Assembly: GCF_003790525.1 (NCBI RefSeq) | Contig: NZ_CP033636.1 | DNA length: 64,000 nt | From: Escherichia coli | Lineage (GTDB): Bacteria; Pseudomonadota; Gammaproteobacteria; Enterobacterales; Enterobacteriaceae | Strand: one strand, 5' to 3' | In this document: positions 12,467 to 59,200 of the stretch, in pieces | How the letters are laid out: each line of letters starts with the position of its first letter | Position numbering within the stretch: position 1 is the first letter of the stretch | Program-made: the position numbers and the translations under genes | The notes under the pieces: model-generated | What the model was told of the DNA's origin: nothing | Database searches by the model: none | The model's input: the letters and a program-made list of their open reading frames with translations, nothing else

Positions 12467-12483
12467 TTCAGATTTGGCCTTGG

Positions 12484-13248: not shown

Positions 13249-13275
13249 TTTGTTTTCCTTTTCTGTGTTGGCTTT

Positions 13276-13311
13276 ATATTAACAATCCAGATGCACGAGC
13301 TAATAACCTCC
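13276..13311 (-). promoter_or_regulatory. island promoter module, minus-strand copy
   Basis: reverse complement reads GGAGGTTATTAGC-N19-TAATAT, positioned upstream of the 13248 start. Confidence 0.45.
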
Positions 13312-16567: not shown

Positions 16568-16603
16568 TCAGGTTATTAGCCAGTAGATTCATTCTGTCAT
16601 GAT
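16568..16603 (+). promoter_or_regulatory. island promoter module copy
   Basis: tcaggttattagcc then 19 bp then catgat, about 30 bp upstream of the 16634 start. Confidence 0.45.
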
Positions 16604-16633
16604 TACTCCAGAACTAACCGGAGGAATCACATT

Positions 16634-18986: not shown

Positions 18987-19023
18987 GGGAGGTTATTAGC
19001 TGGGGGTTGGGTAACAGTATAAT
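18987..19023 (+). promoter_or_regulatory. island promoter module copy
   Basis: gggaggttattagc then 19 bp then tataat, upstream of the 19048 start. Confidence 0.5.
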
Positions 19024-19047
19024 AAGTACAGATGAAAAGGAGGTTTT

Positions 19048-19425
19048 ATGAAAACGTTAGACGTGATTTCAACTCAACTCAACTTTAATAATCTGCTGAA
19101 TCAGGCAGGATATAATCTTTCAGAAATTGTTGTTAAACGCTACAGCGCTGCACCCGCCTTTAACGAAGGGCACTGGTTGTTCATTGCAGAGCAGGATAAT
19201 CGCTACATTGAAGTGGTCAGTCTTCTTTCAAAGGCATCAGAAAGCGGAGAGCAGCATGTCGATATCTTTATCAATATGTTCGAAGATCCGATTGATGACA
19301 TTATCTCACGAAACATTGAACCCAAAACATTTGCGACACTTTATAAATACATTGAACGTATACCTTTTACACCGGACGTAAAAAAAGAATTCTTGAGCAG
19401 TATTGAGACTATTAATTTTAGTTAA
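19048..19425 (+). CDS. hypothetical protein
   Basis: 125-aa ORF with RBS aaaaggagg. Confidence 0.5.
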   Translation: MKTLDVISTQLNFNNLLNQAGYNLSEIVVKRYSAAPAFNEGHWLFIAEQDNRYIEVVSLLSKASESGEQHVDIFINMFEDPIDDIISRNIEPKTFATLYKYIERIPFTPDVKKEFLSSIETINFS

Positions 19426-19451
19426 CTAAAAATTACAGATTTTCTTTCACC

Positions 19452-19489
19452 AAGTTATTAGGTAATGATATCGACCTGGTATCATTACC
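19452..19489 (+). promoter_or_regulatory. island promoter module variant with embedded inverted repeat
   Basis: caagttattagg then 19 bp then tatcat; the spacer contains a perfect 10-bp inverted repeat ggtaatgata / tatcattacc. Confidence 0.45.
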
Positions 19490-19519
19490 GTATCATGAAT
19501 ATGGACGGGGACGGGTAAA

Positions 19520-19948
19520 ATGCCTAATAATACTGAAGTCATTAGCTGCGACTTATTTTCAATTCTTTCCTCACTTAATTTTAGTGTTGAGGATATTACA
19601 GGGCTAACTCCGGCCAAATTCAGAAAGGGGGCTTTCTTGCATGCAAAAATATCTGCAAGCCAGGCCACGCGAGCAGCTGATATTTCCCTTCAATTACTCA
19701 CGGATCGTGTTTCAGGTGAAATGAACTACGTAATAGTAATTGGCAGGCACGAAGGGCTCCTGCAAAGCGAAGCAATTGACCCAAACGCTGATAAGCAGTA
19801 CCGGGAAAACCGTCATTCTCGCCATTTTATCCCAGTAACCGATGCCAATACCAAAGCCCTGAAAAAAACCTGCAAGGTAATGAAAACATATATCAAAGAG
19901 CAGGCATTTAAGCCTAACACCTGGGGGCACAATTTCATTAAGGGTTGA
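19520..19948 (+). CDS. hypothetical protein
   Basis: 142-aa ORF; a GC hairpin (ttgccccgg tgaa ccggggcaa) follows at about 19953-19974. Confidence 0.45.
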   Translation: MPNNTEVISCDLFSILSSLNFSVEDITGLTPAKFRKGAFLHAKISASQATRAADISLQLLTDRVSGEMNYVIVIGRHEGLLQSEAIDPNADKQYRENRHSRHFIPVTDANTKALKKTCKVMKTYIKEQAFKPNTWGHNFIKG

Positions 19949-20012
19949 TTTATTCTTGCCCCGGTGAACCGGGGCAACGCTAAATTAACCTCAACCTGAG
20001 CTGGAGGCACAA

Positions 20013-20270
20013 ATGTCTGAAAAACACTTTATCGTAAAGATCCAGAACCGTAACGGCGACCATGAGAAAAGCTATGTTCGTATACTCGTCAGCGATTGTG
20101 AGAAAAATGCTTGCCAGACGGCACTGATTTCCGAGTGTGCTGGCGAGGTTGAACAGCTGAGTTTTGAAGACGGTGGGGTTTATGACTACAACGGCGAAAA
20201 TCACTACAGTGTCAGGAGCTGCGTGGAGGTTGCCCCTGAAGATGTTGCAACTTTGCAACGCTACCTTTAA
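20013..20270 (+). CDS. hypothetical small protein
   Basis: 85-aa ORF with RBS ctggagg. Confidence 0.45.
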   Translation: MSEKHFIVKIQNRNGDHEKSYVRILVSDCEKNACQTALISECAGEVEQLSFEDGGVYDYNGENHYSVRSCVEVAPEDVATLQRYL

Positions 20271-20413
20271 CACCTGCGGCATTAAAAAAAATATCGGGTG
20301 TCTGTTACAGGATGCCGCTGTTTTAAACGATGCCTCAAAGATCGCTATCGCTCCTGATGCCTTCATTAAGAGCGGGTTTGTGGTAGGTTCAGCGTAACAA
20401 AACTACTGGAATT

Positions 20414-21034
20414 TTGGTTGCCTCGATGAAGAGCTGCTTTTCTGATTTACCCGTTAAAGACGGCAAGTCCGGAACTTGGAAACTGGACACTTTCGAAATT
20501 ACCACAGATAAGGCGCTGACCCTCGCCCTTCGTGCCGAGTGTACTGGTAATACAGATGAGTTTATCCCGCCCGGTAGATATCGCCGCTTGTCCAACGGCT
20601 GGGATGTGGTGATGTCCAATACCCCGATGGAGATCCGAACCTGCCAGGATTTTATAGAGCGAGCCACCGGGCGGGTGCTCATTAATGGTCTTGGTCTTGG
20701 TATGGTGCTCCACGCCATTCTTCAGAAAGACGATGTAACCCATGTCACGGTAATCGAAAAAGAACAGGATGTTATTAACCTCGTTGCAGCCTCGTTTGCA
20801 ACCGATCTTCGCGTTGAAATTATTAATGCTGATGCAATGGAGTATTGTCCACCAGCTGGCGTTACGTACAACGCTTGCTGGCATGACATATGGACAGACT
20901 TCGCAACAGCTAATCTCGCACAGATGGATAAGCTGGAAAGTAAGTACCGGGACATCTGTGACTGGCAGGGATCGTGGGGCAGGGAGGAGTGTGAGCAAAA
21001 GCTCATTGAGTTCCAGAATCTTGAGGCTGATTAA
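20414..21034 (+). CDS. possible small SAM-dependent methyltransferase-fold protein
   Basis: 206-aa ORF; glycine-rich VLINGLGLGM followed by an acidic strand (VTVIEKE), resembling methyltransferase motif I; weak. Confidence 0.3.
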   Translation: MVASMKSCFSDLPVKDGKSGTWKLDTFEITTDKALTLALRAECTGNTDEFIPPGRYRRLSNGWDVVMSNTPMEIRTCQDFIERATGRVLINGLGLGMVLHAILQKDDVTHVTVIEKEQDVINLVAASFATDLRVEIINADAMEYCPPAGVTYNACWHDIWTDFATANLAQMDKLESKYRDICDWQGSWGREECEQKLIEFQNLEAD

Positions 21035-21202
21035 TCCAACTTGCGAAGGTGTCTCCGCTAAAGGAGCCCGGCTCGCTCTGTGCAAGCCCAGCTGTGCTGC
21101 ATGATTTGGCAAAGTCTTCAACAAACCAGATCGGTCTGATTTAGTAATCTCACTTCCAACCATCAGGCCGATATAATAACTGTATCCCCATTAGGATGGC
21201 TG

Positions 21203-31020: not shown

Positions 31021-31341
31021 ATGCCCAATAGCTTCGATAAGCCGCAGACGCGCCCAGCACATAACTCTGATGCCGAACCCTTTTTTCCCAAAAACCTTGG
31101 TTCGTTTATAGAGCAGGTGTCCGGAAGAGATCTGGCAATGCTCACAGAATCCGAAAAAGAACAGCTTGCGCACCTAATCAAAATTGGACGGAGATATGGA
31201 GTTTCTGTAGCTATCGTTCCCGATACAGACTCTGCTGAGCTTCATGAATTACTGTCTAATGCCGGTTCCATTGAAAGGCAGTTTTCCATCTATGAACGCA
31301 TCCAGACGAAGATTGCGTTCACACGGTGTCAGGAAGCATAA
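31021..31341 (+). CDS. hypothetical protein
   Basis: 106-aa ORF; weak RBS. Confidence 0.4.
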   Translation: MPNSFDKPQTRPAHNSDAEPFFPKNLGSFIEQVSGRDLAMLTESEKEQLAHLIKIGRRYGVSVAIVPDTDSAELHELLSNAGSIERQFSIYERIQTKIAFTRCQEA

Positions 31342-31748
31342 ACAAAGTGAGAAATACAACTACGTGGTATGACGTTGTACATGTTGAAATCATTACAGGC
31401 GAGCGAGACGGCAGGATATGGGTGCTGAAGCTCTCCTGTGGCCATACAGTATTTCGTCGAATACCTCCTCTTCGTCTTCATAGCCTCACCGCTTTTTCTC
31501 TGCGGGAGCCCCCAGAAAAATGTCGGTGCTCCCTTTGTAATTCGAATCCAAAATAAAACCTTTTTAAGGCCCCAAACTGAATATCACTGGATAAATCAAC
31601 CTCTACAGCGTTCAATCATAAACGCTAAATTTATATTTCATTCATTCTATTTTAAAAGCGATATAAAAGACGGAATCCGATTTAGTCTGTTTGATGCTTA
31701 AATCATCTTTAGTGCCCTTTATCTTTTACACAGCGACTTTAACATTAA

Positions 31749-31799
31749 CCTGAGCAGAAAAGTTGTTTTCAAACAAAGTGCGAAAACTTTCTGCTCAGG
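31749..31799. promoter_or_regulatory. long hairpin abutting a promoter module
   Basis: cctgagcagaaa...tttctgctcagg, a 12-bp perfect stem with about 25-nt loop; the 3' arm runs into the tcaggttattagcc motif. Confidence 0.45.
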
Positions 31800-31830
31800 T
31801 TATTAGCCGGGTAAGCCACTTTGTTATATT
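31795..31830 (+). promoter_or_regulatory. island promoter module copy
   Basis: tcaggttattagcc then 19 bp then a TATATT-like -10, upstream of the 31857 start. Confidence 0.5.
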
Positions 31831-31856
31831 TGTTTCACATTAACAGAGGAGGCGAT

Positions 31857-32168
31857 ATGCAAATTGAAAAGGTGATGTCATTACTTGAAGTGCTTTCAAG
31901 CTGGCTTGAAGATAACATCAATATGGATTCTGAAATTATCTTTGATAATGACGAAGATAATACCAACTCAGAAATTCTGTATCCTGCTGTAGAAAAGGCT
32001 AATGCCGTTTTGCGCAAAATGGCATCTTTATCTTCAGATTCTGTTCATGCAATTCGACAGCGCTTGCAGCTTGCCGTAGAAGGCAAAGCTGAATTGTCCC
32101 TCAAGGATGTGGGAGAGCTTCTGCTGGCAACAAAGTATCTGATGTTGTCCACTGAAGAGGGAGAGTAA
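31857..32168 (+). CDS. hypothetical acidic protein
   Basis: ORF 31821..32168; likely start at 31857 after the strong RBS agaggagg; acidic composition. Confidence 0.45.
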   Translation: MQIEKVMSLLEVLSSWLEDNINMDSEIIFDNDEDNTNSEILYPAVEKANAVLRKMASLSSDSVHAIRQRLQLAVEGKAELSLKDVGELLLATKYLMLSTEEGE

Positions 32169-32172
32169 GCCT

Positions 32173-32664
32173 GTGACCACTCTCGTATTTGAAATGGCGG
32201 ATATTAATAAACTGATCGAAGAAATTCGCACCGCAAAAACGTTTTCGGTCACCGCAGATCAGATCTATGACCCGGCATGCTATCCGGGGGGAGCCCTCCT
32301 TAACGCTGAGGGACAGACTGAAGAAGAGGCGCGTAAAGCTGGTAGGGTTTTCTTTCCCTCATCCTCAAAAATTGCCAGCACACATCTGGTGCCAAAAGTG
32401 CTTCTCGCGCACAGTCATGGTGTATACCTGATCACTAATGCTGAGCTTGAGGGCTCTCCCGCATCCCGCGATACTGTGGCTTACGCCCAGGGGATGAATC
32501 CAAAACTGGATGAGGACTGGGATTACGCTTGTGATGCCGCTTTGGGTGGGTCTGATTGTAGCTATACCATTCCCGTTGAGTGGCTGGAGTTAGCGGTAGA
32601 GCAGGGTTTTCAGGAGTTTCGACTTCGAATGAGTGAAACCAAGATCAAACTTGTCACTAAATAG
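32173..32664 (+). CDS. hypothetical protein
   Basis: 163-aa ORF, 4 bp after the previous stop. Confidence 0.45.
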   Translation: MTTLVFEMADINKLIEEIRTAKTFSVTADQIYDPACYPGGALLNAEGQTEEEARKAGRVFFPSSSKIASTHLVPKVLLAHSHGVYLITNAELEGSPASRDTVAYAQGMNPKLDEDWDYACDAALGGSDCSYTIPVEWLELAVEQGFQEFRLRMSETKIKLVTK

Positions 32665-32693
32665 TATGTCCTTGCTGTTGCCAGTCAAACATT

Positions 32694-32728
32694 GTCCGCC
32701 AGTCGAGCTGCTGGCGGATTGTTTTATA
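32694..32728 (+). terminator. candidate rho-independent terminator
   Basis: stem tccgccag / ctggcgga with 8-nt loop, followed by a T-rich tract attgtttta. Confidence 0.4.
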
Positions 32729-32743
32729 TAAGGAGGGGAAGGT

Positions 32744-33037
32744 ATGTCAGGTTTAAGCAGTTCCGCCCAGAAGCTTACAATGGCACAGATTTACGTGTTA
32801 CGACGGATGGCATCCGGCACGGTCTATGATATCTCTGGCAATTTCAGACGGGCCAGAGAACGGCGTACGTTTATGGGGAATCCTGATGATGTGACGTGCA
32901 GGAGCTCTCCGGTCCTGTTCCGGCTCGGCCTCGTGGAGTTATGCCAGCCAGCAAGCCATCTGGAGCCAGGTTTATACTATCGGCTCAAGTTGAGCTCCTC
33001 AGGGCATGAGGCTCTCAAGGCGAACGCACACCTCTAA
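32744..33037 (+). CDS. hypothetical protein
   Basis: 97-aa ORF with RBS aggagggg. Confidence 0.45.
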   Translation: MSGLSSSAQKLTMAQIYVLRRMASGTVYDISGNFRRARERRTFMGNPDDVTCRSSPVLFRLGLVELCQPASHLEPGLYYRLKLSSSGHEALKANAHL

Positions 33038-33065
33038 CATTTGAGATAGTTCGTTCGCAGCCAGG

Positions 33066-33076
33066 AAAGTAACTTT
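33066..33076. repeat. AAAGTWACTTT palindrome copy
   Basis: exact aaagtaacttt, about 30 bp after the stop of 32744..33037. Confidence 0.6.
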
Positions 33077-33216
33077 CACCTCAAGTGTGACCCTTACTAC
33101 CTCATTTATGAGTAAACCCCCCCTCTGATATGTCGAAAATGCTCATTTATACGAAAATAGTTTCTCTTCAGGTGTGATGTAATTACTGAGAATTCTCCCT
33201 GAATGGAAGGCAACCG

Positions 33217-33420
33217 ATGAAAATGTTTTTTACCCCTTATGTTCGTATCGTTTTCTATTTTTGCGCATTGATTTTTATTGTTTACAGTTTCAGTGATTTT
33301 TTCCAGGGCGTCCCTGACAGCACCTTCTTCAGTGCGGTCATCATGCTACTTGTTATCGGAACCATTGTTGCCCGGCATCTGGATCGCAAAAAATCTCTCA
33401 AAAATACTTCACAGATTTAA
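33217..33420 (+). CDS. hypothetical small membrane protein
   Basis: 67-aa ORF with two hydrophobic segments. Confidence 0.35.
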   Translation: MKMFFTPYVRIVFYFCALIFIVYSFSDFFQGVPDSTFFSAVIMLLVIGTIVARHLDRKKSLKNTSQI

Positions 33421-33474
33421 GTTTCAACTCAGGCCACTCTCGGGTGGCTTTTATAATTTAATAAGGACCGGTTC

Positions 33475-33699
33475 ATGCATAACCACGAAATTCAGACCAT
33501 TGCTATATTTAGTGCCCAGTATAAAAACATCGAAGATGCTGAAAATGCAGGTGCTTTATATTCTGTAGATATTGAATATCCGATGACACTAAATGATTTA
33601 TCGCGGCTTTGCGACTCTATTGCCGAAGCAGTAGGTGTGCCTGGCGGCGTCAAATACCAGTTCGTGTCCCAGCCGGAAGCGCATGAAACCAGCTTCTGA
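33475..33699 (+). CDS. small protein, paralog of the 28271 product
   Basis: 74-aa ORF; block DIEYPMTLNDLSRLCDSIAEAVGVPGGVKY. Confidence 0.5.
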   Translation: MHNHEIQTIAIFSAQYKNIEDAENAGALYSVDIEYPMTLNDLSRLCDSIAEAVGVPGGVKYQFVSQPEAHETSF

Positions 33700-33738
33700 T
33701 AACCAGTAACCAAACTGCCTAAAAGCAGGTGCAAAGCC

Positions 33739-33939
33739 ATGAAACAAACAAAGTCTTCTATGTCACGTATTGTGCAGCTGTACGACGGGAGCCGATACGG
33801 AAACTGCGAGCAGGCTGATAACGAAGGAGAGCTTTTTACGGTGGTGTTGAATAAGCCTTCGCAGATCGATGACATCCGTAAAATCGTAGACACAACCGCC
33901 GAAGTACTTGGCAAAGCTTTGCCAGTACTCCTCTTATAA
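33739..33939 (+). CDS. hypothetical small protein
   Basis: 66-aa ORF; loose resemblance to the 28271/33475 pair. Confidence 0.35.
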   Translation: MKQTKSSMSRIVQLYDGSRYGNCEQADNEGELFTVVLNKPSQIDDIRKIVDTTAEVLGKALPVLLL

Positions 33940-34098
33940 AGCTTACATCCGTGAAGGATAATTACGGTCTTACTACTTTCAGTTTTTCATTCCAGTGCCG
34001 TCCATTTTAATTTATCGATTTTAAGCGGTCGGCGCTATTTCATCGTTTCTTTTCCGACTGTAATTCCTTATATATAGGAATATTTCAAAGAATTTTTC

Positions 34099-34135
34099 TC
34101 AGGTTATTTGTGGCGGGATGCCAGTTGTTATAATG
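34099..34135 (+). promoter_or_regulatory. island promoter module, variant
   Basis: tcaggttatttg then 19 bp then tataat, upstream of the 34162 start. Confidence 0.45.
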
Positions 34136-34161
34136 ATTCCACATAATCTGGAGAGTTAATC

Positions 34162-34473
34162 ATGATCACATCTCTAATGAATTTCCGCGATTTAACCGGA
34201 GAGGCAGTCATCCAGGCGCGGCAATGCGTTATTAATGCGGAGATCGAAGCGGCCCGGGAAAAGGTAATTCATGCTCGTTCGTTATTCGAAGCGGGTATAC
34301 ATAATGTTGTAAACGGTAGTTCTGGCATTAAGGCTGCGGCAGCACATTTTCTGGTGATAAAACGTTTACAGACTGACACTCGGTATCTGGATGCGGTTAT
34401 CACTGATAACCTTTGCATGTTTTCTCCTGAGGGTTATCTGTATCTGTTTATGCAACAGCGTTATATGCGATAA
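34162..34473 (+). CDS. hypothetical protein
   Basis: 103-aa ORF with RBS ggagag. Confidence 0.45.
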   Translation: MITSLMNFRDLTGEAVIQARQCVINAEIEAAREKVIHARSLFEAGIHNVVNGSSGIKAAAAHFLVIKRLQTDTRYLDAVITDNLCMFSPEGYLYLFMQQRYMR

Positions 34474-34847
34474 AACAATGTGTTAGGGAAGTATCTTGCC
34501 ATTAAAAATATTAAAAAGGTGACTTGATGAAACCATTTGGACTTGCCGGAAAACCCCGGCCCGAACCTTGCGGCTGCTGCTGGTATACCCGTGAGGACTG
34601 CCCTTACGTCAGCGCAAAATAGATCTATCGCCGCAGGCAGCGCAAGGCAGAACGCCAGCGTCAGCGCAGCACCATTGTGATGGCCGTTTCTGAATTTCGC
34701 TGACTTCTTCTGGAAATATCATTTTTTCTCCAGAAGAATTTTAAAATAAAGGGAAATCTCTTCACGGGTATCTGATGTTTATTGTTTATGGTAAATTGCG
34801 CCACATTAATTTTTGTGGCGCAGTTCGTGTTGGCTTAAGGATATAAT

Positions 34848-35129
34848 ATGAAAATCAGCCAGCTGGAATCCGGGATGCAGGTTTGGTCTGTAACCCGTAC
34901 CAAAATGGGAAATACCACCATTACAACGGTCATTGTCCACCCCGTTGTCATTATAGAAATTCATGATAATCATGTGATTGCTCGCTGGAACGGCAATGCA
35001 CCACGTCGTTTTGGAGAAACGGCTATCAGGGGCTGGAAGAAGGAGAAGCCCCTGCTTGTCCGTGAACCTTTCGGAAATGCTCGCCTGGCCACCCGGGCTG
35101 AAAAAGCCGCTATGCAGGAAAAAGAGTAA
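34848..35129 (+). CDS. hypothetical protein
   Basis: 93-aa ORF; preceded by inverted repeat gcgccaca / tgtggcgc and a tataat. Confidence 0.4.
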   Translation: MKISQLESGMQVWSVTRTKMGNTTITTVIVHPVVIIEIHDNHVIARWNGNAPRRFGETAIRGWKKEKPLLVREPFGNARLATRAEKAAMQEKE

Positions 35130-35344
35130 TACCCCTTTTAGCATCCACAATTTCAACGTCCATCTGCCTTTAACCTTGCCTGTTAATAACGGAATCCTTT
35201 CTGACTGGCCGGATCCCACGCATAACCTGAACTGTTGGCTAACCGTCTTACAGCCAAATTCCCTCCTTTATCTGGCAGGAGTGCGTCCGTGAGCTCTGTA
35301 TGATCTACGTGTTTGTTCAGTAGAGCACATAACAGGAGTGGGGT

Positions 35345-35950
35345 ATGACTGAATTAAATAAAAGCCCGTCCGGTTTTTCCGGAGCTGATGTCAGTAAAGA
35401 ACAGGCTGCCATAAGGGCACTTGTAGAAAGAGTAGTGACCAACTATCGCAGCCGGACAGCACCTGATCGGGTTCAAAAGGCTTCGGTAGCGTTTAATGGG
35501 GGATTAATCCTGACCCTGATGCTGGCCTTGTCGCTATTGGGCTACCTTGTGGCGGAATTGTTCAGGGGGTATGTTGCGGATAGTTCACCCTATGTGCCTG
35601 GTCTAAGTTATTCGCAATTTTCGATGCTGATGATCGTTGAGCTGTGTCTATGCTTTCTCGCATGGTTTTTGGTTGTCACAGGGGACTATCCCCGGCCGTG
35701 GATATTTCAGGTAGTCCCGATGGAGCAGTACTGGTTCTTTGACGAAGTGGATGACGACGATCTTGCCCGGCTTTCCTGTAACCCTTACATCAAGCGCTGG
35801 CTACTTGATGAAATGTCCGGTATTCATCGACTGACCTACACGAGGCTGCATGATCGACTGGAGCGCATCTGTAATATTCCATCCCATCTCGAATACAGCC
35901 GTATTCAGGCACATAAGCTTTCCCTAATCAACGGAACCAGTGCCTCCTGA
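35345..35950 (+). CDS. hypothetical membrane protein
   Basis: 201-aa ORF with RBS aacaggag and two or more hydrophobic helices. Confidence 0.45.
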   Translation: MTELNKSPSGFSGADVSKEQAAIRALVERVVTNYRSRTAPDRVQKASVAFNGGLILTLMLALSLLGYLVAELFRGYVADSSPYVPGLSYSQFSMLMIVELCLCFLAWFLVVTGDYPRPWIFQVVPMEQYWFFDEVDDDDLARLSCNPYIKRWLLDEMSGIHRLTYTRLHDRLERICNIPSHLEYSRIQAHKLSLINGTSAS

Positions 35951-36282: not shown

Positions 36283-36804
36283 ATGTCAAAGCCAAAATAC
36301 CCTTTTGAAAAGCGCCTTGAAGTCGTGAATCACTACTTCACTACTGATGATGGTTACAGGATCATCTCGGCACGTTTTGGTGTCCCCCGAACCCAGGTCA
36401 GGACATGGGTTGCCCTCTATGAAAAACATGGAGAAAAAGGTTTAATTCCCAAACCTAAAGGTGTTAGTGCTGATCCTGAGTTGCGTATTAAGGTCGTGAA
36501 AGCGGTGATCGAGCAGCACATGTCCCTTAATCAGGCTGCTGCTCACTTTATGCTTGCTGGTAGTGGTTCTGTAGCCAGGTGGCTGAAGGTTTATGAAGAG
36601 CGCGGAGAAGCTGGTTTACGCGCGCTCAAGATTGGCACCAAAAGAAACATTGCAATATCAGTTGATCCAGAAAAAGCGGCATCAGCATTGGAGCTGTCAA
36701 AAGACCGACGCATTGAGGATCTTGAAAGGCAAGTTCGATTTCTTGAAACGCGGCTTGTGTATCTAAAAAAGCTGAAAGCCTTAGCTCATCCCACGAAAAA
36801 GTGA
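36283..36804 (+). CDS. insJ: IS150 transposase OrfA
   Basis: 173-aa ORF MSKPKYPFEKRLEVVNHYFTTDDGYRIISARFGVPRTQVRTWV, recognised as IS150 InsJ. Confidence 0.9.
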   Translation: MSKPKYPFEKRLEVVNHYFTTDDGYRIISARFGVPRTQVRTWVALYEKHGEKGLIPKPKGVSADPELRIKVVKAVIEQHMSLNQAAAHFMLAGSGSVARWLKVYEERGEAGLRALKIGTKRNIAISVDPEKAASALELSKDRRIEDLERQVRFLETRLVYLKKLKALAHPTKK

Positions 36805-37652
36805 AAGTACTCAACGAGCTAAGGCAGTTTTATCCTCTTGATGAGCTTCTCAGGGCTGCGGAGATACCGCGCAGTACGTTTTATTACCATCTAAAGGCTC
36901 TCAGCAAGCCTGACAAGTATGCGGACGTTAAAAAGCGTATTGGTGAGATTTATCATGAGAATAGAGGCCGATACGGATACCGTAGGGTAACGCTGTCTCT
37001 TCATCGAGAAGGGAAACAGATTAACCATAAAGCTGTTCAGCGCCTGATGGGAATCCTCTCACTGAAGGCAGCGATTAAGGTCAAGCGATACCGCTCTTAC
37101 AGAGGAGAGGTAGGGCAAACCGCCCCCAATGTTCTCCAAAGAGATTTCAAGGCTACGCGGCCAAACGAGAAGTGGGTTACCGATGTTACTGAATTTGCAG
37201 TCAATGGGCGCAAGCTGTATTTGTCTCCAGTAATAGATCTCTTCAACAACGAAGTTATTTCTTACAGCCTTTCGGAAAGACCAGTGATGAACATGGTCGA
37301 GAATATGCTCGATCAGGCATTCAAAAAGCTTAATCCTCACGAGCATCCTGTTCTGCACTCTGACCAGGGATGGCAGTATCGTATGAGAAGATATCAAAAT
37401 ATCCTTAAAGAACATGGTATTAAACAAAGCATGTCCAGAAAAGGCAATTGTCTGGATAATGCTGTGGTGGAGTGTTTCTTTGGAACCTTAAAGTCGGAGT
37501 GTTTTTATCTTGATGAGTTCAGTAATATAAGCGAGCTGAAGGATGCTGTTACGGAATATATTGAATACTACAACAGCAGAAGAATTAGCCTGAAATTAAA
37601 AGGTCTGACTCCAATTGAATATCGGAATCAGACCTATATGCCTCGTGTTTAA
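36801..37652 (+). CDS. insK: IS150 transposase OrfB (DDE domain)
   Basis: 283-aa ORF overlapping orfA in the -1 frame, typical IS3-family arrangement. Confidence 0.9.
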
Positions 37653-37760: not shown

Positions 37761-37909
37761 CGAACCAACCCATTGTTTTGTGCATATTAATAGTTTGTTT
37801 AACGCTGTTGATATTCACCTGGCTCACACGAAACTCGCTTTGCGAGTTGCGGATGAAAGACGGAACAAGGGAGGTATTTGCTATCCTGGCCTACGAATCC
37901 GGTAAGTAG
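37751..37909 (+). CDS. hok: Hok/Gef-family type I toxin
   Basis: 52-aa product [52 protein letters not shown] closely resembles plasmid Hok; RBS caaggagaag; an in-frame leader ORF starts at 37694. Confidence 0.85.
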
Positions 37910-37915
37910 CTGACA

Positions 37916-37943
37916 AAGAGGGGGGCAACCCCCCTCTTTTCAG
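37916..37943 (+). terminator. rho-independent terminator after hok
   Basis: perfect stem agagggggg / cccccctct with loop caa, then ttttc. Confidence 0.6.
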
Positions 37944-37978
37944 GGTGTGGATTAGTATGCCATCGGCACCTTTTGAAA

Positions 37979-41731: not shown

Positions 41732-42916
41732 ATGTCCGCAATCGAAACTGAAGTAAAAAACAACAGCAACGAAATCAGCCTTCGTGGTTACCTGGAACGC
41801 ACTGGTAACGGTGCCCGTAAAGGCAACGGCCTTATCATTGACCCTTCGGTTGTTGTAGAGCAGGAAGGCTTTAACACCCGCACGGCCGGTATGGGCGAGC
41901 TCTACTATTCAATGCCTCACGTTGTGGAACACCTGAACAGCCTGGCCGATGCCTACATGGAAGACCCGTTCAGCGTGACGCCTATCGTTGTTCAGATGGT
42001 TAATGGCGTACCTGTACTGCGTCAGGGGGCTTGCCGTATCCGTTCCATCGCTATTGCAAACCGCCAGCTGGAAGCAGAAGGGCGTGAACGCATTACTCGT
42101 ATTCGCTGCGAAGAGTTTCGCGGTAGCGCTTCAAAAGCAGAACTCTTCACCCTGACCGGCAACTCCAACCTGGCGCTGTCTGTCGTAGCTGAAGCGCTTT
42201 CAATTAAGCGTCTGGTTGAAGATAAAGAAGAGCCTAAGACCTTTGCGGAACTGGCAAAAAAACGTGGTAAATCAGAGCAGCATCTTCGCCAGATGGTTCG
42301 CGTACTGGACCTGCCTTCTGAACTACAGACCATGCTTGTGAGCGATCAGGTGAGCATGTACGTTGCACTGGACGAGTATATGTACAGCGGTGAGGATGCG
42401 GTAGATAACATCAACAAAGCGATCTCCATCTATGGCAAGGCGACGAAAAACACGCTGAAATTCGTCAAAGCTGCCAAGGTAGAAGAGCGCATGGCAGATC
42501 CGCAGACTCCGGAAAACATCGGTGCTGAGCAACCGGCAGATGATACTACCGATAACACCCCGGTACCGGATCAACTGAACGATGAAAGCAATACGGAGAC
42601 GCTGGATACGCCACCGGTACAGGAACCGGCTCCAGCTCCAAAGGACAGCGCTCCTAAACAGAACCCGGCAGGTAAAGCACCTTCCATGTCCAGCGTTCTG
42701 AACAAAAAGACTGTGACCGTCATTGCAGACACCGCGATCCCGATTTTTGAACGTATTGCTGAAGAAGCCAAGCTTAAAGAAGGTGAATCTGTCAGTACTG
42801 ATACTTACACGCTTGTTCTGACCAATGATGAAATGAACGATATCATCAACGCTCATGCTGACCTGAAAGAGTACCTGCGTAAGCATGCTGATAAGATGAA
42901 CAAGGGACAGTCATGA
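41732..42916 (+). CDS. ParB-like protein (ParB N-terminal domain plus HTH), no adjacent ParA
   Basis: 394-aa ORF; LIIDPS...FNTR...PIVVQMVNG...RQGACRIRS resembles the ParB/Srx fold; HTH-like TFAELAKKRGKSEQHLRQMVRVLDLPSELQ; acidic proline-rich linker. Confidence 0.5.
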   Translation: MSAIETEVKNNSNEISLRGYLERTGNGARKGNGLIIDPSVVVEQEGFNTRTAGMGELYYSMPHVVEHLNSLADAYMEDPFSVTPIVVQMVNGVPVLRQGACRIRSIAIANRQLEAEGRERITRIRCEEFRGSASKAELFTLTGNSNLALSVVAEALSIKRLVEDKEEPKTFAELAKKRGKSEQHLRQMVRVLDLPSELQTMLVSDQVSMYVALDEYMYSGEDAVDNINKAISIYGKATKNTLKFVKAAKVEERMADPQTPENIGAEQPADDTTDNTPVPDQLNDESNTETLDTPPVQEPAPAPKDSAPKQNPAGKAPSMSSVLNKKTVTVIADTAIPIFERIAEEAKLKEGESVSTDTYTLVLTNDEMNDIINAHADLKEYLRKHADKMNKGQS

Positions 42917-48620: not shown

Positions 48621-49352
48621 CTAAGGCTTCTGCTTAGTGAACAGACTTGCCCACAGATAATGGATAAAGTTGAGCAGAATGTATGTTACTCGTTGCTCGA
48701 ATTTCATCGGGGCTTTGTACTTTGTCGTTATGTTGTGAATATGAGTAAGGTCCGTATAGAGCCCTAGCGACTTCCTTGTTGACTTCAACACCGAACAGAT
48801 GTGCTGAACAGACTCCGGTGTGAACAACCGTAGCCCTCGTCGTTGTTTGACTTTATGGATAAAATCGTCCATCCCCATACATAACCATTCCGGCTTGATG
48901 CCATCAAACTTACAACGTCCGTTTATGATGACGACATTGATACATTCCAGTTCTCTAGCCTTAAGAGCAGACTGAATAGCCCTGATGTGCCCCTGGTTTT
49001 GCTTAAACGGGTTCTGCAACTTGAGGGTTCGGGACTGAGTCCATTTCCGCCAGTGGCTTTCCTCCAGAGTACCGTAGAGCTTGCCTACGTAGTTTTTCTG
49101 CTCTATGACGTATATACCATGTGGGGCTACGAGAATGTGATCAACCTGAGTAGTGCTATGAGCCGACAACTGAAAGGTGAGATCACTAAGTAGCCCCTGA
49201 GCTTCTTCAGGAAGCCCAGATTCAATTGCCTTTGCAGTCCGCCGTTCCGCTATGGCAGAGGTCATAAAACCCAACAGACACAGCAACACGACGAAAATAA
49301 GGATAATGAAAGCTACCCCCGTAATGCTCCACAGCAGATTGAAAGCATCCAT
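48621..49352 (-). CDS. NERD-domain-like protein with N-terminal membrane anchor
   Basis: 243-aa ORF; hydrophobic N-terminus; VDHILVAPHGIYVIEQKNYVG resembles the nuclease-related domain core. Confidence 0.45.
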   Translation of the reverse strand: MDAFNLLWSITGVAFIILIFVVLLCLLGFMTSAIAERRTAKAIESGLPEEAQGLLSDLTFQLSAHSTTQVDHILVAPHGIYVIEQKNYVGKLYGTLEESHWRKWTQSRTLKLQNPFKQNQGHIRAIQSALKARELECINVVIINGRCKFDGIKPEWLCMGMDDFIHKVKQRRGLRLFTPESVQHICSVLKSTRKSLGLYTDLTHIHNITTKYKAPMKFEQRVTYILLNFIHYLWASLFTKQKP

Positions 49353-49353
49353 G

Positions 49354-50535
49354 TTACCTCACAGAGGGGTAGCTGGTGGCATTAACAGATTCTACCAAGC
49401 GGGTAGTGGTACCGGTAAGGCTCTCAATATTTGAAGACAGGCTCATCAGCATGCCGAGTGCAGAACGGAGATTACGATGAGGCTCATTGTAGTTTTTGAA
49501 CGTGTCAGTGGAGTACATTTTTGAAAGACGTGTACGGATCTCTACTGACGTAAGATCTCCATCCACCAGGCCGTACTTAACTGCCTGAGGTGTTGGCCAT
49601 ACACGGCCTGAATAGAGAGAAACAGCATCGGCATCATGACGCGAGAGAAGCTTTTTACCCCGTCCAAGTTCAACATCAGTTATAAATTTTTCATGCATCG
49701 TGTTCAGGATCTCCTTCTGCATGAACTCCCTCGTTGAATCGGACAATGGGTGGAAGGGGTCAAGAGCATCTTTGAACTCACCGGCCGTAAGGGGCTCATT
49801 CTTGACGCCTACTGTGCTCATGATCTCTGACAGATTCCAGTGGTCCATACGCACACCGATAGAACCGATCAGGGCATTACTGTCGGCATAAATTGCATCA
49901 GCGGGCGATACCGCGTAATAGCATGCGGATGCGCATATGCCTTTCACACTAACGATGATTGGTTTATATGAGTCTGCGATATCAGAGAAAAAACGACCGG
50001 TACCGCTGGAGAGTACTTCGAGGGAGTTTTGCTTCGACCGTGCTTCATCGCCACGTTCTGTGCTCCCGGTTTTGTTACTCTTGTCAGCGGCTACAGATGA
50101 AAGAGAGCAACCGGCATCTGATACGCGTTCAATCTGTGGCTGGTGGTTTTTAAGCGCGTTTATCTGGCGGTAAATAATGATGGCGTCAGAGGGACCACCA
50201 CCACCTGACTCTGCCTCGATAATAACTGCTTTGGCATGGGGATTATTGTAAGCTTTGGCAAGAGCTGTTGCGATCACTGTTCCATCGCCCGTTTCCGAGC
50301 CGGTACCCATCTCGCCAGAAATCCGTATTACAGCTATATGGTCTTTCTTCCCTTCAGCGTCCTGCCATTGTTCGTAAAGATTGTAGAAAGAAAACCCTAC
50401 AGCGGTCATGGCAATTAGCGACATAGCAACTTTTGCCGTGGTATGAATGCGAAACATCTTATAAAAACGGTCAGCGTTATCATTGAGCGATTCTTTGATA
50501 TTTGTAGGGGACTTCCTTTTTTTACTGCTTAACAT
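49354..50535 (-). CDS. S49-family peptidase (SppA-like)
   Basis: 393-aa ORF; N-terminal membrane anchor; SppA-like blocks HIAVIRISGEM, AVIIEAESGGG and IGSIGVRMDHWN. Confidence 0.55.
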   Translation of the reverse strand: MLSSKKRKSPTNIKESLNDNADRFYKMFRIHTTAKVAMSLIAMTAVGFSFYNLYEQWQDAEGKKDHIAVIRISGEMGTGSETGDGTVIATALAKAYNNPHAKAVIIEAESGGGGPSDAIIIYRQINALKNHQPQIERVSDAGCSLSSVAADKSNKTGSTERGDEARSKQNSLEVLSSGTGRFFSDIADSYKPIIVSVKGICASACYYAVSPADAIYADSNALIGSIGVRMDHWNLSEIMSTVGVKNEPLTAGEFKDALDPFHPLSDSTREFMQKEILNTMHEKFITDVELGRGKKLLSRHDADAVSLYSGRVWPTPQAVKYGLVDGDLTSVEIRTRLSKMYSTDTFKNYNEPHRNLRSALGMLMSLSSNIESLTGTTTRLVESVNATSYPSVR

Positions 50536-50545
50536 CTGACCACCT

Positions 50546-57540: not shown

Positions 57541-57543
57541 ACC

Positions 57544-58960: not shown

Positions 58961-59044
58961 TGAGGGAATGACCATTGTGGATTATTGCTTTTGATAATGT
59001 GCATTGCTCTATTAAAGTTATACATATATCTAGTGCCACTTTTC

Positions 59045-59200
59045 CAAAAAAAATGACCCTATGGAACTTTGTCCATAGTGACACTTTTATAAAAAGTGAC
59101 CCTATGACGACATTACATAGGGTCACTTTTCAAACATAAGTGACCCTATGTGAGGTATTCATAGGGTCACTTTTCTTTGTTTAGTGATCCTATGTAAGCA
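59045..59200. other. candidate oriT / relaxosome binding region
   Basis: five copies of AAGTGACCCTATG in direct and inverted orientation, forming two perfect 15-bp inverted repeats with 9-10-bp spacers, between divergent transfer operons. Confidence 0.45.

What the first reader, a model, noticed from the sequence alone, without database searches (positions are those of the whole stretch)
19048..35950. Same-strand island of about 30 small unknown ORFs with DNA-modifying enzymes
From about 19 kb to 36 kb nearly every plausible gene is on the plus strand, short, tightly packed and mostly without recognisable domains. Interspersed are a DNA methyltransferase (21203), a possible second methyltransferase-fold protein (20414), a PP-loop enzyme (25637), an HNH endonuclease (29130) and acidic small proteins, all behind the shared promoter module. 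This resembles the establishment or anti-defence islands of conjugative plasmid leading regions, so several of these ORFs may be uncharacterised counter-defence proteins.
Basis: partly seen in the sequence, partly recalled or inferred. Interest (0 to 1): 0.7.

Follow-up and report, generated by a model that had tools for sequence, protein, structure and literature searches.

The report
IncHI plasmid array of establishment-type genes
This is a conserved but uncharacterised block of the IncHI2 resistance-plasmid backbone, with 26 mostly unknown small genes plus DNA-modifying enzymes behind a repeated promoter element; it looks like a counter-defence island but lies on the side of the transfer origin that is conventionally expected to enter a new cell last.

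Summary
Window 19048-35950 holds 26 RefSeq-annotated genes, all on the + strand, with a median length of 104 aa. Nineteen have no family match. Ten are acidic.

The block is not tightly packed, since 27% is non-coding. It is cut into several transcription units by a real shared promoter module: the 11-mer CAGGTTATTAG in the -35 position plus an extended -10.

The window is IncHI2 plasmid backbone, 100% identical to hundreds of plasmids. IncHI1 R27 has the syntenic array at 43-80% aa identity, with dN/dS of 0.2 or less and the promoter module conserved.

R27 microarrays show these genes as weakly expressed or silent, and derepressed together with the tra genes in an htdA mutant.

A homologue of the DndC-like gene sits in a classical leading-region island with an antirestriction gene in a MOBF plasmid.

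No known anti-defence protein and no Frpo-like single-strand promoter was found. The array lies beyond the relaxase operon, 23-40 kb from oriT, which by the usual rule is the late-entering side.

Verdict: a plausible transfer-coupled counter-defence or establishment regulon. Membership of a leading region is unproven and is not met by the standard criterion.

The parts
18989..19040 (+). Promoter module copy (GAGGTTATTAG, 18 nt, TATAAT) upstream of gene 19048
19048..19425 (+). 125-aa acidic (pI 4.7) ORFan
   Evidence: no family hit
19451..19505 (+). Promoter module copy (CAAGTTATTAG ... TATCAT) upstream of 19520
19520..19948 (+). 142-aa basic ORFan, followed by a 23-nt hairpin (19943-19990)
20013..20270 (+). 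85-aa acidic ORFan
20426..21034 (+). 202-aa Rossmann-type methyltransferase-fold protein of unknown substrate
   Evidence: phrog_15480 'methyltransferase' 4.6e-34; weak spermidine-synthase/RsmA-like hits
21203..22453 (+). 416-aa orphan DNA methyltransferase: Mrr_N winged helix (residues 17-84) plus N6_N4_Mtase (residues 128-390); no adjacent endonuclease
   Evidence: about 50% identical homologues in IncC, Klebsiella and Pseudomonas large plasmids
22734..22880 (+). 48-aa ORF (annotated; weakest gene call in the island)
23296..23622 (+). 108-aa ORFan
23688..23945 (+). 85-aa acidic ORFan, with a terminator-like hairpin at 23984-23996
24094..24150 (+). Promoter module copy (exact CAGGTTATTAG ... 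TGTTATGAT) upstream of 24172
24172..24963 (+). 263-aa acidic (pI 4.4) protein of an IncHI-restricted family with conserved His/Glu/Cys; fold not assignable
   Evidence: 15 clusters only; 58% identity to R27; AF2 pLDDT 67.8; no significant fold match
25015..25464 (+). 149-aa acidic ORFan
25637..28021 (+). 794-aa DndC-like PP-loop ATP-pyrophosphatase with Fe-S-type cysteines and a conserved C-terminal region of about 430 aa with no known fold match
   Evidence: DndC models 4e-38 over residues 61-474; invariant SGGKDS and 5 Cys in 44 homologues; AF2 pLDDT 87; only the N-terminal domain matches PDB; 75% identity to R27, 47% to IncC
28271..28510 (+). 79-aa acidic protein, paralogue of 33475 (50% identity)
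28573..28884 (+). 103-aa protein with phage homologues of unknown function
   Evidence: phrog_30913 2.8e-38
28881..29069 (+). 62-aa ORF overlapping the previous stop by 4 nt
29130..29663 (+). 177-aa HNH endonuclease
   Evidence: phrog_2118 2.2e-55; CxxC...HxDH...CxxC visible in the translation
29775..30386 (+). 203-aa DUF6012 protein, with a terminator-like hairpin at 30446-30461
   Evidence: PF19475 1.3e-33
30614..30841 (+). 75-aa basic protein; a weak module copy lies at 30519
   Evidence: phrog_1344 2e-8; 55% identity to R27
31021..31341 (+). 106-aa ORFan
31746..31850 (+). Promoter module copy (exact 11-mer at 31796, TGTTATATT) preceded by a perfect 15-nt inverted copy (31746-31760 / 31788-31802)
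   Evidence: conserved in R27
31857..32168 (+). 103-aa acidic DUF957 protein
   Evidence: RefSeq name; 73% identity to R27, dN/dS 0.06
32173..32664 (+). 163-aa acidic DUF3085 protein, with a strong terminator at 32694-32719
   Evidence: PF11284 1.3e-9
33217..33420 (+). 67-aa predicted membrane peptide
   Evidence: hydrophobic translation
33475..33699 (+). 74-aa acidic protein, paralogue of 28271 and 33739; 80% identity to R27
   Evidence: by gene order its R27 orthologue is R0092, derepressed 12-fold in the htdA mutant
33739..33939 (+). 66-aa paralogue of 33475
34100..34155 (+). Promoter module copy (CAGGTTATTTG ... TGTTATAAT) upstream of 34162
   Evidence: conserved in R27
34162..34473 (+). 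103-aa ORFan
   Evidence: 59% identity to R27, dN/dS 0.13
34474..34847 (+). Structured 374-nt spacer holding an unannotated 31-aa Cys-rich ORF (34527-34622) and two hairpins
   Evidence: z = -3.8
34848..35129 (+). 93-aa basic protein
   Evidence: 78% identity to R27, dN/dS 0.14
35345..35950 (+). 201-aa protein with two hydrophobic segments
   Evidence: 43% identity to R27; by gene order its R27 orthologue is R0100, derepressed 17.5-fold in the htdA mutant
36283..37652 (+).
37790..37909 (+). Hok-family type I toxin, continuing the array
   Evidence: 85% identity to R27 flmA/R0101
41732..42916 (+). 394-aa ParB-like protein behind a palindrome and a degenerate module; first gene of the second part of the array (41.7-48.3 kb)
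   Evidence: phrog_1033 1.6e-21, TIGR00180
43792..43846 (+). Promoter module copy upstream of 43847
16569..16633 (+). Promoter module copy upstream of 16634 (the 156-aa protein / RelE-like / flavin reductase unit)
13262..13310 (-). Promoter module copy on the minus strand, upstream of the 254-aa gene and a third methyltransferase (12484-13248 and 11642-12466)
48621..58817 (-). Tra1 H operon (traH/MobI-like, 245-aa protein, traI MOBH relaxase, traG coupling protein, 370-aa protein, traJ/DUF4400, S49 peptidase, NERD protein), lying between the array and oriT
59037..59197 (.). oriT core: repeated inverted repeats AAAAGTGACCCTATG / CATAGGGTCACTTTT, conserved in R27

Best explanation
The block is the conserved accessory array of IncHI plasmids. 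It is a multi-promoter, single-orientation set of establishment or counter-defence-type genes that acts as a transfer-coupled regulon rather than as a classical leading region.

Shown:
- The window is IncHI2 backbone.
- The genes are real and under purifying selection.
- At least eight transcription units in and around the island start from a shared promoter module in which a conserved 11-mer replaces the -35 hexamer in front of an extended -10.
- In the IncHI1 relative R27, the orthologous genes are weakly expressed or silent in settled cells. They are derepressed 2- to 17-fold, like the tra operons, when the HtdA brake on the TrhR/TrhY activators is removed.

Inferred:
- When a cell becomes transfer-proficient, or in a fresh transconjugant before the plasmid's silencing is re-established, the array fires.
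- Its DNA-directed enzymes (two methyltransferases, a solitary DndC-like PP-loop/Fe-S enzyme, an HNH nuclease) and its small acidic proteins then modify the plasmid DNA or neutralise host defences, so that the plasmid survives entry into a new host.
- Modification laid down in the donor travels with the transferred strand, so it would protect the DNA whatever the order of entry.
For: Identity. The region is 100% identical to IncHI2 plasmids; 1113 records match and 677 of them cover at least 80% of the query.

Real genes. The array is syntenic in R27 at 43-80% aa identity. dN/dS is 0.05-0.20 with saturated dS.

Regulon.
- The promoter module occurs in 8 strong copies.
- It is conserved at orthologous promoters in R27 although the flanks have diverged.
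- Canonical -35/-10 promoters are not enriched (18 found against 27 expected).
- Plus-strand terminators separate the units.

Transfer coupling. In the htdA mutant of R27 at 25 C, the genes that fall in the array by gene order (R0086-R0093, R0098-R0110) rise 2- to 17.5-fold. H-operon genes rise 5- to 11-fold. Several array genes are 'not expressed' in the wild type (PMC7366339 text and supplement).

DNA-directed functions.
- The methyltransferase domains are confirmed and no cognate nuclease is adjacent.
- The DndC-like enzyme keeps its PP-loop and cysteines across 44 homologues and gives a confident model.
- The HNH match is 2e-55.

Guilt by association.
- A DndC-like homologue sits in a MOBF plasmid leading-region island with DndB, an N6-methylase, an antirestriction protein (PF03230) and toxin-antitoxin pairs.
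- Another sits in the IncC ssb-bet-exo-dcm-primase array.
- A PAPS-reductase family is listed as leading-region-enriched.

Context. No known anti-defence system was found in PTU-HI1A, and the conventional 'leading' side shows no signal (bioRxiv 10.1101/2025.04.03.647016). In R27 that side starts with Mpf genes and then has mixed orientation.
Against: - No protein here matches a known anti-restriction, anti-CRISPR, SOS-inhibitor or SSB family.
- Two structure predictions gave no functional fold beyond the PP-loop domain.
- HtdA derepression is not specific: 139 of 181 expressed R27 genes respond.
- The expression data are from R27, not from this IncHI2 plasmid. The two methyltransferases, the HNH and DUF6012 were not found at the corresponding places in R27, so they have no expression data at all.
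- My mapping of R-numbers to genes rests on gene order.
- There is no codon-adaptation signal (CAI 0.26 against 0.244 for tra genes, not significant).
- Neither the regulator that reads the module nor any effect on restriction has been shown.
Confidence: 0.45

Rival explanations
1. It is a true leading-region anti-defence island. On this reading IncHI (MOBH11) plasmids enter relaxase operon first, so the minus strand is the transferred strand. The plus-sense array follows 10 kb behind and is transcribed early in the recipient, as in the first reader's model.
For: - All of the roughly 40 array genes, including hok, the ParB-like gene and the methyltransferases, point toward oriT. That is the orientation reported as exclusive for these families in leading regions (PMC11541004).
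- The conventional leading side of R27 has no island and mixed orientation, and shows no anti-defence or codon signal.
- Nic site and polarity appear undetermined for the related IncA/C plasmids (PMC5587640). I found no determination for IncHI.
Against: - In nearly all studied systems the relaxase operon enters last.
- In IncC, which shares MobI and the DndC-like gene, the equivalent array lies on the non-mobI side of oriT. One polarity relative to mobI therefore cannot make both arrays 'leading and correctly oriented'.
- No long Frpo-like hairpins or unusually structured promoters were found, except one 374-nt spacer.
- The module looks like an ordinary double-strand promoter.
- Same-strand orientation is also what co-orientation with replication from repHI2 (4.7 kb) would give, and GC skew is positive across 16-48 kb.
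Confidence: 0.2
2. It is ordinary backbone cargo unrelated to establishment. On this reading it is a mix of plasmid-maintenance, host-adaptation, plasmid-competition or even defence genes, with the orphan methylases acting as epigenetic regulators and the DndC-like and HNH proteins as fragments of modification-based defence. Common orientation would reflect replication or transcription economy, and the common promoter would reflect duplication history.
For: - The array starts about 13 kb from repHI2 and is co-directional with a fork leaving it.
- Most R27 genes of every kind respond to htdA.
- Many non-tra R27 genes are more expressed at 37 C.
- PADLOC models for defence components match the methyltransferase, DndC-like and HNH proteins.
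Against: - No complete defence system is present. There is no DndA/B/D/E or DndFGH, no endonuclease next to either methylase, and the HNH gene is 7 kb from the methylase.
- Small acidic ORFans and the hok, ParB and methylase gene set are typical of establishment regions.
- DndC-like homologues travel with antirestriction genes in another plasmid family.
- The module is conserved by selection, not just by descent.
Confidence: 0.25
3. Most of the small ORFs are non-functional or mis-annotated remnants in a decaying region.
For: - Nineteen of 26 have no family match.
- Several R27 orthologues are 'not expressed' on arrays.
- The 48-aa ORF at 22734 and some gaps are poorly supported.
Against: - The ORFs are intact in more than 600 plasmids at 99% identity or above.
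- They are conserved as ORFs between IncHI1 and IncHI2, with dN/dS of 0.2 or less while synonymous sites are saturated.
- Nearly every annotated start has a good Shine-Dalgarno sequence.
- Expression is inducible in R27.
Confidence: 0.05

Closest known systems
Leading-region anti-defence islands of conjugative plasmids (F, ColIb-P9 and the survey of Samuel et al. 2024, PMC11541004)
   Same: - Long single-orientation array of small, mostly unknown genes pointing toward oriT.
- Orphan DNA methyltransferases, a hok-type toxin and a ParB-like protein.
- A PAPS-reductase/DndC-like family that also occurs in such islands.
   Different: - The array is not adjacent to oriT and lies on the relaxase side.
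- No ArdA/KlcA/PsiB/SSB/Acr homologue is present.
- No Frpo-type single-strand promoter was found.
- The promoters are a plasmid-specific double-strand type.
- Early entry is unproven, and unlikely by the standard rule.
CUP (conserved upstream) regulon of the IncN pKM101/R46 leading region, controlled by ArdK/ArdR (Delver & Belogurov 1997, as described in PMC6289460)
   Same: A short conserved element repeated in front of many small establishment genes carries their promoter or operator. This makes the region one co-regulated set that is shut down by plasmid-encoded regulators in settled cells.
   Different: - The sequence and the plasmid family are different. Similarity to CUP sequences was not tested.
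- The protein that reads the IncHI element is unknown.
- The only regulatory link is the indirect HtdA/TrhR-TrhY data from R27.
IncC (IncA/C) ssb-bet-exo ... dcm ... PAPS-reductase ... primase array
   Same: - Same relaxase class (MOBH) and MobI-type oriT factor.
- Orthologous 800-aa DndC-like protein (47% identity) and a related wHTH methyltransferase (about 50% identity).
- Same style of same-strand array of about 40 small genes.
   Different: - The IncC array has ssb, bet and exo, which IncHI lacks.
- It lies on the side of oriT opposite to mobI and further away.
- The IncHI module was not looked for there.
Dnd/Ssp DNA phosphorothioation systems (DndC/SspD)
   Same: The 794-aa protein has the DndC-type PP-loop (SGGKDS) and conserved cysteines, and scores 1e-37 against DndC models.
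   Different: - It stands alone, with no DndA/B/D/E and no DndFGH.
- It scores below the DndC family cut-off (118 bits against 290).
- It has an extra conserved C-terminal region of about 430 aa with no fold match.
- The chemistry it performs is unknown.

Membership tests
IncHI2 plasmid backbone | Near-identity and synteny with sequenced IncHI2 plasmids, between repHI2 and the Tra1 region | tested here: met
   The region is 100% identical over 17 kb; 1113 plasmid records match, typed IncHI2A/MOBH/MPF_F.
Leading-region anti-defence island | Lies in the first-entering DNA next to oriT, on the side away from the relaxase gene (operational criterion of PMC11541004) | tested here: not met
   The oriT core is at 59037-59197. 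The relaxase operon (48621-58817, minus strand) lies between it and the array, which is 23-40 kb from oriT.
Leading-region anti-defence island | Actually enters the recipient early (true nic strand and polarity) | not testable with these tools
   No nic-site or polarity data for IncHI were found in the accessible literature. For IncA/C the attempts are reported as failed.
Leading-region anti-defence island | Genes oriented so that the transferred strand is their template | tested here: inconclusive
   All genes point toward oriT. That is correct only if the relaxase side enters first, and wrong under the conventional polarity.
Leading-region anti-defence island | [quoted passage not shown] | tested here: not met
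   No such family was found in Pfam, NCBIfam or PHROGs for any of the 26 ORFs or the 10 neighbouring ORFs scanned (the neighbours were not scanned against Pfam).
Leading-region anti-defence island | Accompanying families: orphan methyltransferases, toxin-antitoxin, SSB or ParB | tested here: met
   There are two methyltransferase-type genes inside the island, with hok (37790) and a ParB-like gene (41732) just downstream. There is no SSB.
Leading-region anti-defence island | Single-strand (Frpo/ssi-type) promoters | tested here: inconclusive
   No long hairpins were found. Only one spacer is clearly structured (34474-34847, z -3.8), and it has no evident promoter boxes in a stem. No Frpo reference sequences were available for a homology search.
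CUP-type repeated-promoter establishment regulon | A conserved element repeated upstream of many genes of the region, containing or overlapping their promoters | tested here: met
   Eight strong copies of CAGGTTATTAG with a -10 at a fixed distance are conserved in R27.
CUP-type repeated-promoter establishment regulon | Plasmid-encoded repressor binds the element; burst of expression on entry into a naive cell | not testable with these tools
Dnd phosphorothioation system | DndC-type PP-loop ATP pyrophosphatase with Fe-S cysteines | tested here: met
   TIGR03183 scores 6.4e-34, below the cut-off. PADLOC DndC scores 4e-38. SGGKDS and 5 Cys are invariant.
Dnd phosphorothioation system | Partner genes dndA/B/D/E (and dndFGH for restriction) in the same locus | tested here: not met
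   None were found among the island proteins. A DndB neighbour exists only in the MOBF-plasmid homologue.
Type II restriction-modification system | Methyltransferase with an adjacent cognate endonuclease | tested here: not met
   The neighbours of 21203 are small ORFans. The only nuclease (HNH, 29130) is 7 kb away in another transcription unit.

The most novel reading that the evidence does not exclude
This array may be the missing counter-defence repertoire of IncHI plasmids, using mechanisms not yet described. One candidate is a solitary DndC-like enzyme that modifies plasmid DNA on its own. Another is a family of IncHI-only acidic proteins. All would be driven by a plasmid-specific promoter box that replaces the -35 element. 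In the stronger form of this reading, MOBH11 plasmids also transfer relaxase operon first, so the array is a true leading region, and the bioinformatic rule 'relaxase = lagging' mis-orients a whole plasmid class.
Probability: 0.2. Interest if true: 0.8.

Novelty: new variant of a known kind. Interest (0 to 1): 0.55.

Why it matters
IncHI2 plasmids are major carriers of mcr-1 and other resistance genes, and IncHI1 plasmids drive multidrug-resistant typhoid.

A recent survey found no known anti-defence system in IncHI1 plasmids and no leading-region signal. It stated that it is unclear how R27 conjugates so efficiently into other Enterobacterales.

This conserved, transfer-co-regulated array of DNA-modifying enzymes and ORFans is the obvious place to look. 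It offers about 25 concrete candidate genes and a defined promoter box.

If the array works from the relaxase side of oriT, or from the donor, that would show that 'leading region' is not the only architecture for plasmid counter-defence. It would also show that current bioinformatic screens miss whole plasmid classes.

Tried and rejected
1. Literature search for the transfer polarity or nic site of IncHI. I checked Samuel 2024, Shaw 2025/26, the Rts1 deletion study, the IncA/C oriT paper, the SXT/IncA-C review, GGI TraI and an IncC relaxosome preprint. No determination was found. The Lawley 2002 and Sherburne 2000 papers are not held.

2. Known anti-defence families. Pfam, NCBIfam, PHROGs and PADLOC gave none.

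3. PDB sequence searches for the DndC-like, 263-aa and DUF3085 proteins. The only matches were to the PP-loop domain.

5. Structure of the DndC-like protein. The model is confident, but the C-terminal 430 aa have no PDB match.

6. Rfam scan of 16-60 kb. Nothing reached gathering score, not even a hok/sok RNA.

7. Long direct repeats as a 'promoter module'. None were found at 25 nt or longer. The module is short and was found by k-mer counting.

8. Frpo-like hairpins. None were found.

9. Codon adaptation as a leading-region signature. There was no difference from the tra genes.

10. DUF3085 distribution. It is essentially confined to IncHI-type plasmids and was uninformative.

11. IncC as a guide to polarity. 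The array lies on the other side of oriT relative to mobI, so it does not help and mildly argues against the leading-region reading.

12. R27 locus L004 never appeared in the script sandbox. The first half of the island was therefore compared with R27 only by pairwise calls (89, 90, 100, 101).

Full report
WHAT THE WINDOW IS

The 17-kb interval is 100% identical to IncHI2 resistance plasmids of Escherichia, Salmonella, Enterobacter and Klebsiella. 1113 PLSDB records match, 677 of them over at least 80% of the query, and almost all are typed conjugative/MOBH.

Using the annotation of pHS13-1-IncHI2 and the ORF map, the window reads as follows:
- Ig-like protein genes and repHI2 (1-16 kb).
- A + strand run from 13782 onward, containing the reported island (19048-35950).
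- IS150 (36283-37652).
- A hok toxin gene (37790-37909).
- A short minus-strand cassette (38.3-40.6 kb).
- A second + strand run (41.1-48.3 kb), interrupted by an IS1 specific to this plasmid.
- The Tra1 'H' operon on the minus strand (48621-58817). It encodes a NERD protein, an S49 peptidase, traJ/DUF4400, a 370-aa protein, the coupling protein, the MOBH relaxase TraI, a 245-aa protein and the MobI-like TraH.
- The oriT intergenic region (58818-59521).
- trhR and the following genes on the + strand.

The oriT core (59037-59197) consists of repeated inverted repeats, AAAAGTGACCCTATG / CATAGGGTCACTTTT. It is strongly structured and conserved in R27.

CHECK OF THE OBSERVATION

The island holds 26 annotated CDS, all on the + strand, with a median length of 104 aa. 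Eighteen are 150 aa or shorter and ten have pI below 5.

- A 202-aa methyltransferase-fold protein (phrog_15480, 4.6e-34).
- A 416-aa DNA methyltransferase made of an Mrr_N winged helix and an N6_N4_Mtase domain. It has no nuclease next to it.
- A 794-aa PAPS-reductase/DndC-like protein.
- A 177-aa HNH nuclease (2.2e-55).

DUF6012, DUF957 and DUF3085 proteins are also present. Two small proteins have phage homologues of unknown function, and the rest match nothing.

Two details of the description need correction.
- The genes are not tightly packed. 27% of the interval is non-coding, and eleven spacers exceed 200 nt.
- The 'shared promoter module' precedes only some of the genes.

THE PROMOTER MODULE

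K-mer counting over the spacers, followed by a pattern search, found an 11-mer, CAGGTTATTAG. It is preceded by an A/T-rich stretch and followed after 16-19 nt by a -10 hexamer, usually in the extended form TGnTATAAT.

- Copies in the island start at 18989, 19451, 24094, 31796 and 34100, with a weak one at 30519.
- Copies outside it start at 16569, 43792 and 13310 (minus strand), with a degenerate one in front of the ParB-like gene.
- Each lies 30-70 nt upstream of a start codon.
- The 11-mer occupies positions -41 to -31, where a -35 hexamer should be, and none of the possible hexamers resembles TTGACA.
- Consistently, a canonical sigma-70 scan finds fewer sites than in shuffled sequence (18 against 27).
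- Plus-strand terminator-like hairpins follow genes 19948, 23945, 30386, 32664 and 33420.

The island is therefore a set of at least six to eight transcription units with a common promoter type, not one operon.

The module is also found in IncHI1 R27. It occurs there at orthologous promoters (DUF957, the 103-aa gene, the ParB-like gene, the 99-aa gene), where the box and the -10 are kept while the spacer and flanks have diverged. That is a phylogenetic footprint of function.

RELATED SEQUENCES

R27 carries the same array in the same place, between its Ig-like and rep genes and its H operon. It is split there by Tn10 and by an IS1/corA insertion.

- Orthologues share 43-80% amino-acid identity.
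- Synonymous sites are saturated, and dN/dS is 0.05-0.20 where it can be computed.
- Content is mosaic. In the R27 stretches examined, the segment with the two methyltransferases (19-24 kb here) and the HNH/DUF6012 segment have other genes in their place. The 263-aa/149-aa/DndC-like trio and the DUF957-DUF3085 ... hok ... ParB-like part are shared.

EXPRESSION

Published R27 microarrays (PMC7366339) show that genes falling in the array by gene order are weakly expressed or 'not expressed' in wild-type cells.
- In an htdA mutant at 25 C they rise 2- to 17.5-fold: R0092 12-fold, R0093 14-fold, R0100 17.5-fold, hok/R0101 5.9-fold, R0105 and R0110 6.5-fold.
- The H operon rises 5- to 11-fold in the same experiment.
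- HtdA counteracts the TrhR/TrhY activators of the tra operons.
- The response is not specific, because 139 of 181 expressed genes respond.
- My mapping of R-numbers to genes rests on gene order.

WHAT THE PROTEINS TELL

The DndC-like protein belongs to a broad family of 650-850-aa plasmid proteins.
- The PP-loop SGGKDS, five cysteines and several C-terminal residues are invariant in a 44-sequence alignment.
- AlphaFold gives a confident model (pLDDT 87).
- The N-terminal domain matches PAPS/APS reductases, the FAD synthase PAPS domain and the tRNA sulfurtransferase TtuA. The C-terminal 430 residues match nothing in the PDB.
- No Dnd partner is present, so it is not a Dnd system.

The 263-aa acidic protein upstream belongs to a family found only on IncHI-type plasmids. 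It has conserved His, Glu and Cys residues, and its model has no significant structural neighbour.

Three small acidic proteins (28271, 33475, 33739) are paralogues.

The wHTH methyltransferase has homologues of about 50% identity on IncC plasmids, large Klebsiella plasmids and Pseudomonas megaplasmids.

CONTEXT OF HOMOLOGUES

In an 82-kb MOBF/MPF_F Enterobacter plasmid (NZ_CP150022), a 669-aa homologue of the DndC-like protein lies in a 20-kb + strand array.
- That array also carries DndB, an N6-methylase, DUF1419, an antirestriction protein (PF03230), DUF1380, PrlF/YhaV and DUF4942.
- It ends just before the oriT-proximal accessory gene, the coupling protein and the MobF relaxase, all on the same strand. 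That is the textbook leading-region geometry.

In IncC plasmids the 47%-identical orthologue lies in the ssb-bet-exo ... dcm ... primase array.

The supplement of Samuel et al. lists a PAPS-reductase family among those enriched in leading regions.

So this gene family, at least, keeps the company of counter-defence genes.

IS IT A LEADING REGION?

The array is 23-40 kb from oriT, and the relaxase operon lies between them.

The rule used in the field is that relaxosome genes lie in the lagging region. Under that rule the + strand is the transferred strand. The array would then be among the last DNA to enter, and its genes could not be transcribed from the incoming single strand.

Points that leave the opposite polarity open:
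- Every array gene points toward oriT, including hok, the ParB-like gene and the methylases. That is the orientation these families show in leading regions.
- The conventional leading side of R27 begins with 8 kb of mating-pair genes and then has mixed orientation.
- A recent survey found no anti-defence genes and no codon signal for PTU-HI1A, and dropped PTU-HI2.
- The nic site and polarity of the related IncA/C plasmids resisted determination. I could find none for IncHI.

Points against the opposite polarity:
- The generality of the rule.
- In IncC the equivalent array lies on the non-mobI side of oriT.
- There are no long Frpo-like hairpins.
- There is no codon-adaptation signal.
- The alternative explanation by co-orientation with replication from repHI2 is simple, and GC skew is positive across 16-48 kb.

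I put the probability that the array enters early at about 0.2.

MOST LIKELY MECHANISM

The data fit best a transfer-coupled regulon.
- The array would be kept silent in settled cells.
- It would be switched on with the transfer genes, and perhaps again transiently in new transconjugants before silencing is re-established.
- Its products would act on DNA. Methylation or other modification applied in the donor travels with the transferred strand and gives hemi-modified, restriction-resistant duplex in the recipient, whatever the order of entry. That step follows from established knowledge of restriction-modification. It was not tested here.
- The small acidic proteins are candidates for direct inhibitors.

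What is shown: identity, conservation, promoter architecture, domain content, co-derepression in R27, and association of one family with antirestriction genes elsewhere.

What is inferred: timing, targets and any protective effect.

COMPARISON WITH WHAT IS KNOWN, AND NOVELTY

The closest known things are:
- Leading-region anti-defence islands, which share the style and part of the content but differ in position and promoters.
- The CUP-element regulon of the IncN leading region, which uses the same idea of a repeated promoter/operator element.
- The IncC backbone array, which carries orthologous genes.

The DNA is well known and heavily sequenced. I found no paper that assigns a function to this block, describes the promoter box, or addresses IncHI counter-defence.

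I rate it a new variant of a known kind, of moderate interest. It gives a concrete, testable answer to an explicitly stated open question, but nothing here demonstrates function.

Noticed in passing
window 886, 951, 7654, 9878, 18867, 23079, 28128, 30859, 33066, 41505, 41631, 47457, 52359, 54089, 58950, 59435, 62495: A 13-bp near-palindrome, AAAAGT(T/A)ACTTTT, occurs about 17 times in 64 kb, where roughly one to a few would be expected for an 11-mer with one mismatch. Most copies are in promoter-bearing spacers: upstream of trhR, traH, the ParB-like gene, an Ig-like gene and several island units. Some lie inside traG. It is conserved at the same places in R27, including the traG coding positions. 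It shares the half-site AAAAGT.AC with the oriT repeats, and probably binds a plasmid regulator or relaxosome protein.
   Followed up: partly
window 59037-59197: The oriT core is made of three to four copies of the inverted repeat AAAAGTGACCCTATG-N9-CATAGGGTCACTTTT. It is almost identical in R27 while the surrounding intergenic DNA has diverged. The 704-nt region folds far better than shuffles (z -4.7 on the + strand, -9.2 on the minus strand).
   Followed up: partly
window 34474-34847: This 374-nt spacer is unusually structured (z -3.8). It holds an unannotated 31-aa cysteine-rich ORF (34527-34622, MKPFGLAGKPRPEPCGCCWYTREDCPYVSAK) with a Shine-Dalgarno sequence, a terminator-like hairpin (34706-34739) and a second hairpin just before the ribosome-binding site of gene 34848. 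It may be a leader or attenuator.
   Followed up: partly
window 31746-31802: A perfect 15-nt inverted repeat (TAACCTGAGCAGAAA / TTTCTGCTCAGGTTA) has its right arm overlapping the promoter-module 11-mer of the DUF957 promoter. This suggests that the element can act as a dimeric operator at that site.
   Followed up: no
window 11642-13310 (minus strand): A third methyltransferase gene (11642-12466), preceded by a 254-aa gene (12484-13248), sits behind a minus-strand copy of the same promoter module (13310). The regulon therefore extends outside the reported island and onto the other strand.
   Followed up: partly
window 41732-42916: The ParB-like gene has a much higher codon adaptation index (0.50) than any other gene in the window (0.17-0.39). 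By gene order its R27 orthologue (R0104) is among the most highly expressed array genes.
   Followed up: no
window 36283-37652 and about 44.1-44.9 kb: IS150 is inserted between the island and hok. An IS1 copy (transposase ORF 44280-44783) is present in the window but absent from pHS13-1-IncHI2. Many related plasmids carry other IS elements (IS1, IS3, IS5, IS21, IS30) within the 17-kb island, so the island tolerates insertions.
   Followed up: partly
window 34848-35129: In PLSDB this 93-aa basic protein carries an RGI label 'Brucella suis mprF, defensin resistance, 100% identity'. This is clearly a spurious resistance-gene annotation for a small plasmid ORF.
   Followed up: no
window 37790-38330: The hok-family toxin locus gives no Rfam hit at gathering threshold for a hok or sok RNA, although the region downstream (37910-38327) is strongly structured (z about -3).
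   Followed up: no
window 1118-3574, 7768-10188 (minus strand), 13782-16199: Three genes of about 800 aa encoding Ig-like-domain proteins surround repHI2, as in R27, where such proteins have been linked to conjugation. The first is preceded by two copies of the palindrome.
   Followed up: no
L005 / L011 (IncC plasmid NZ_CP007636), record 20563-21678: IncC plasmids carry a second, shorter PAPS-reductase-family gene (371 aa, minus strand) close to repA and mobI, in addition to the 817-aa orthologue in the ssb-primase array.
   Followed up: no
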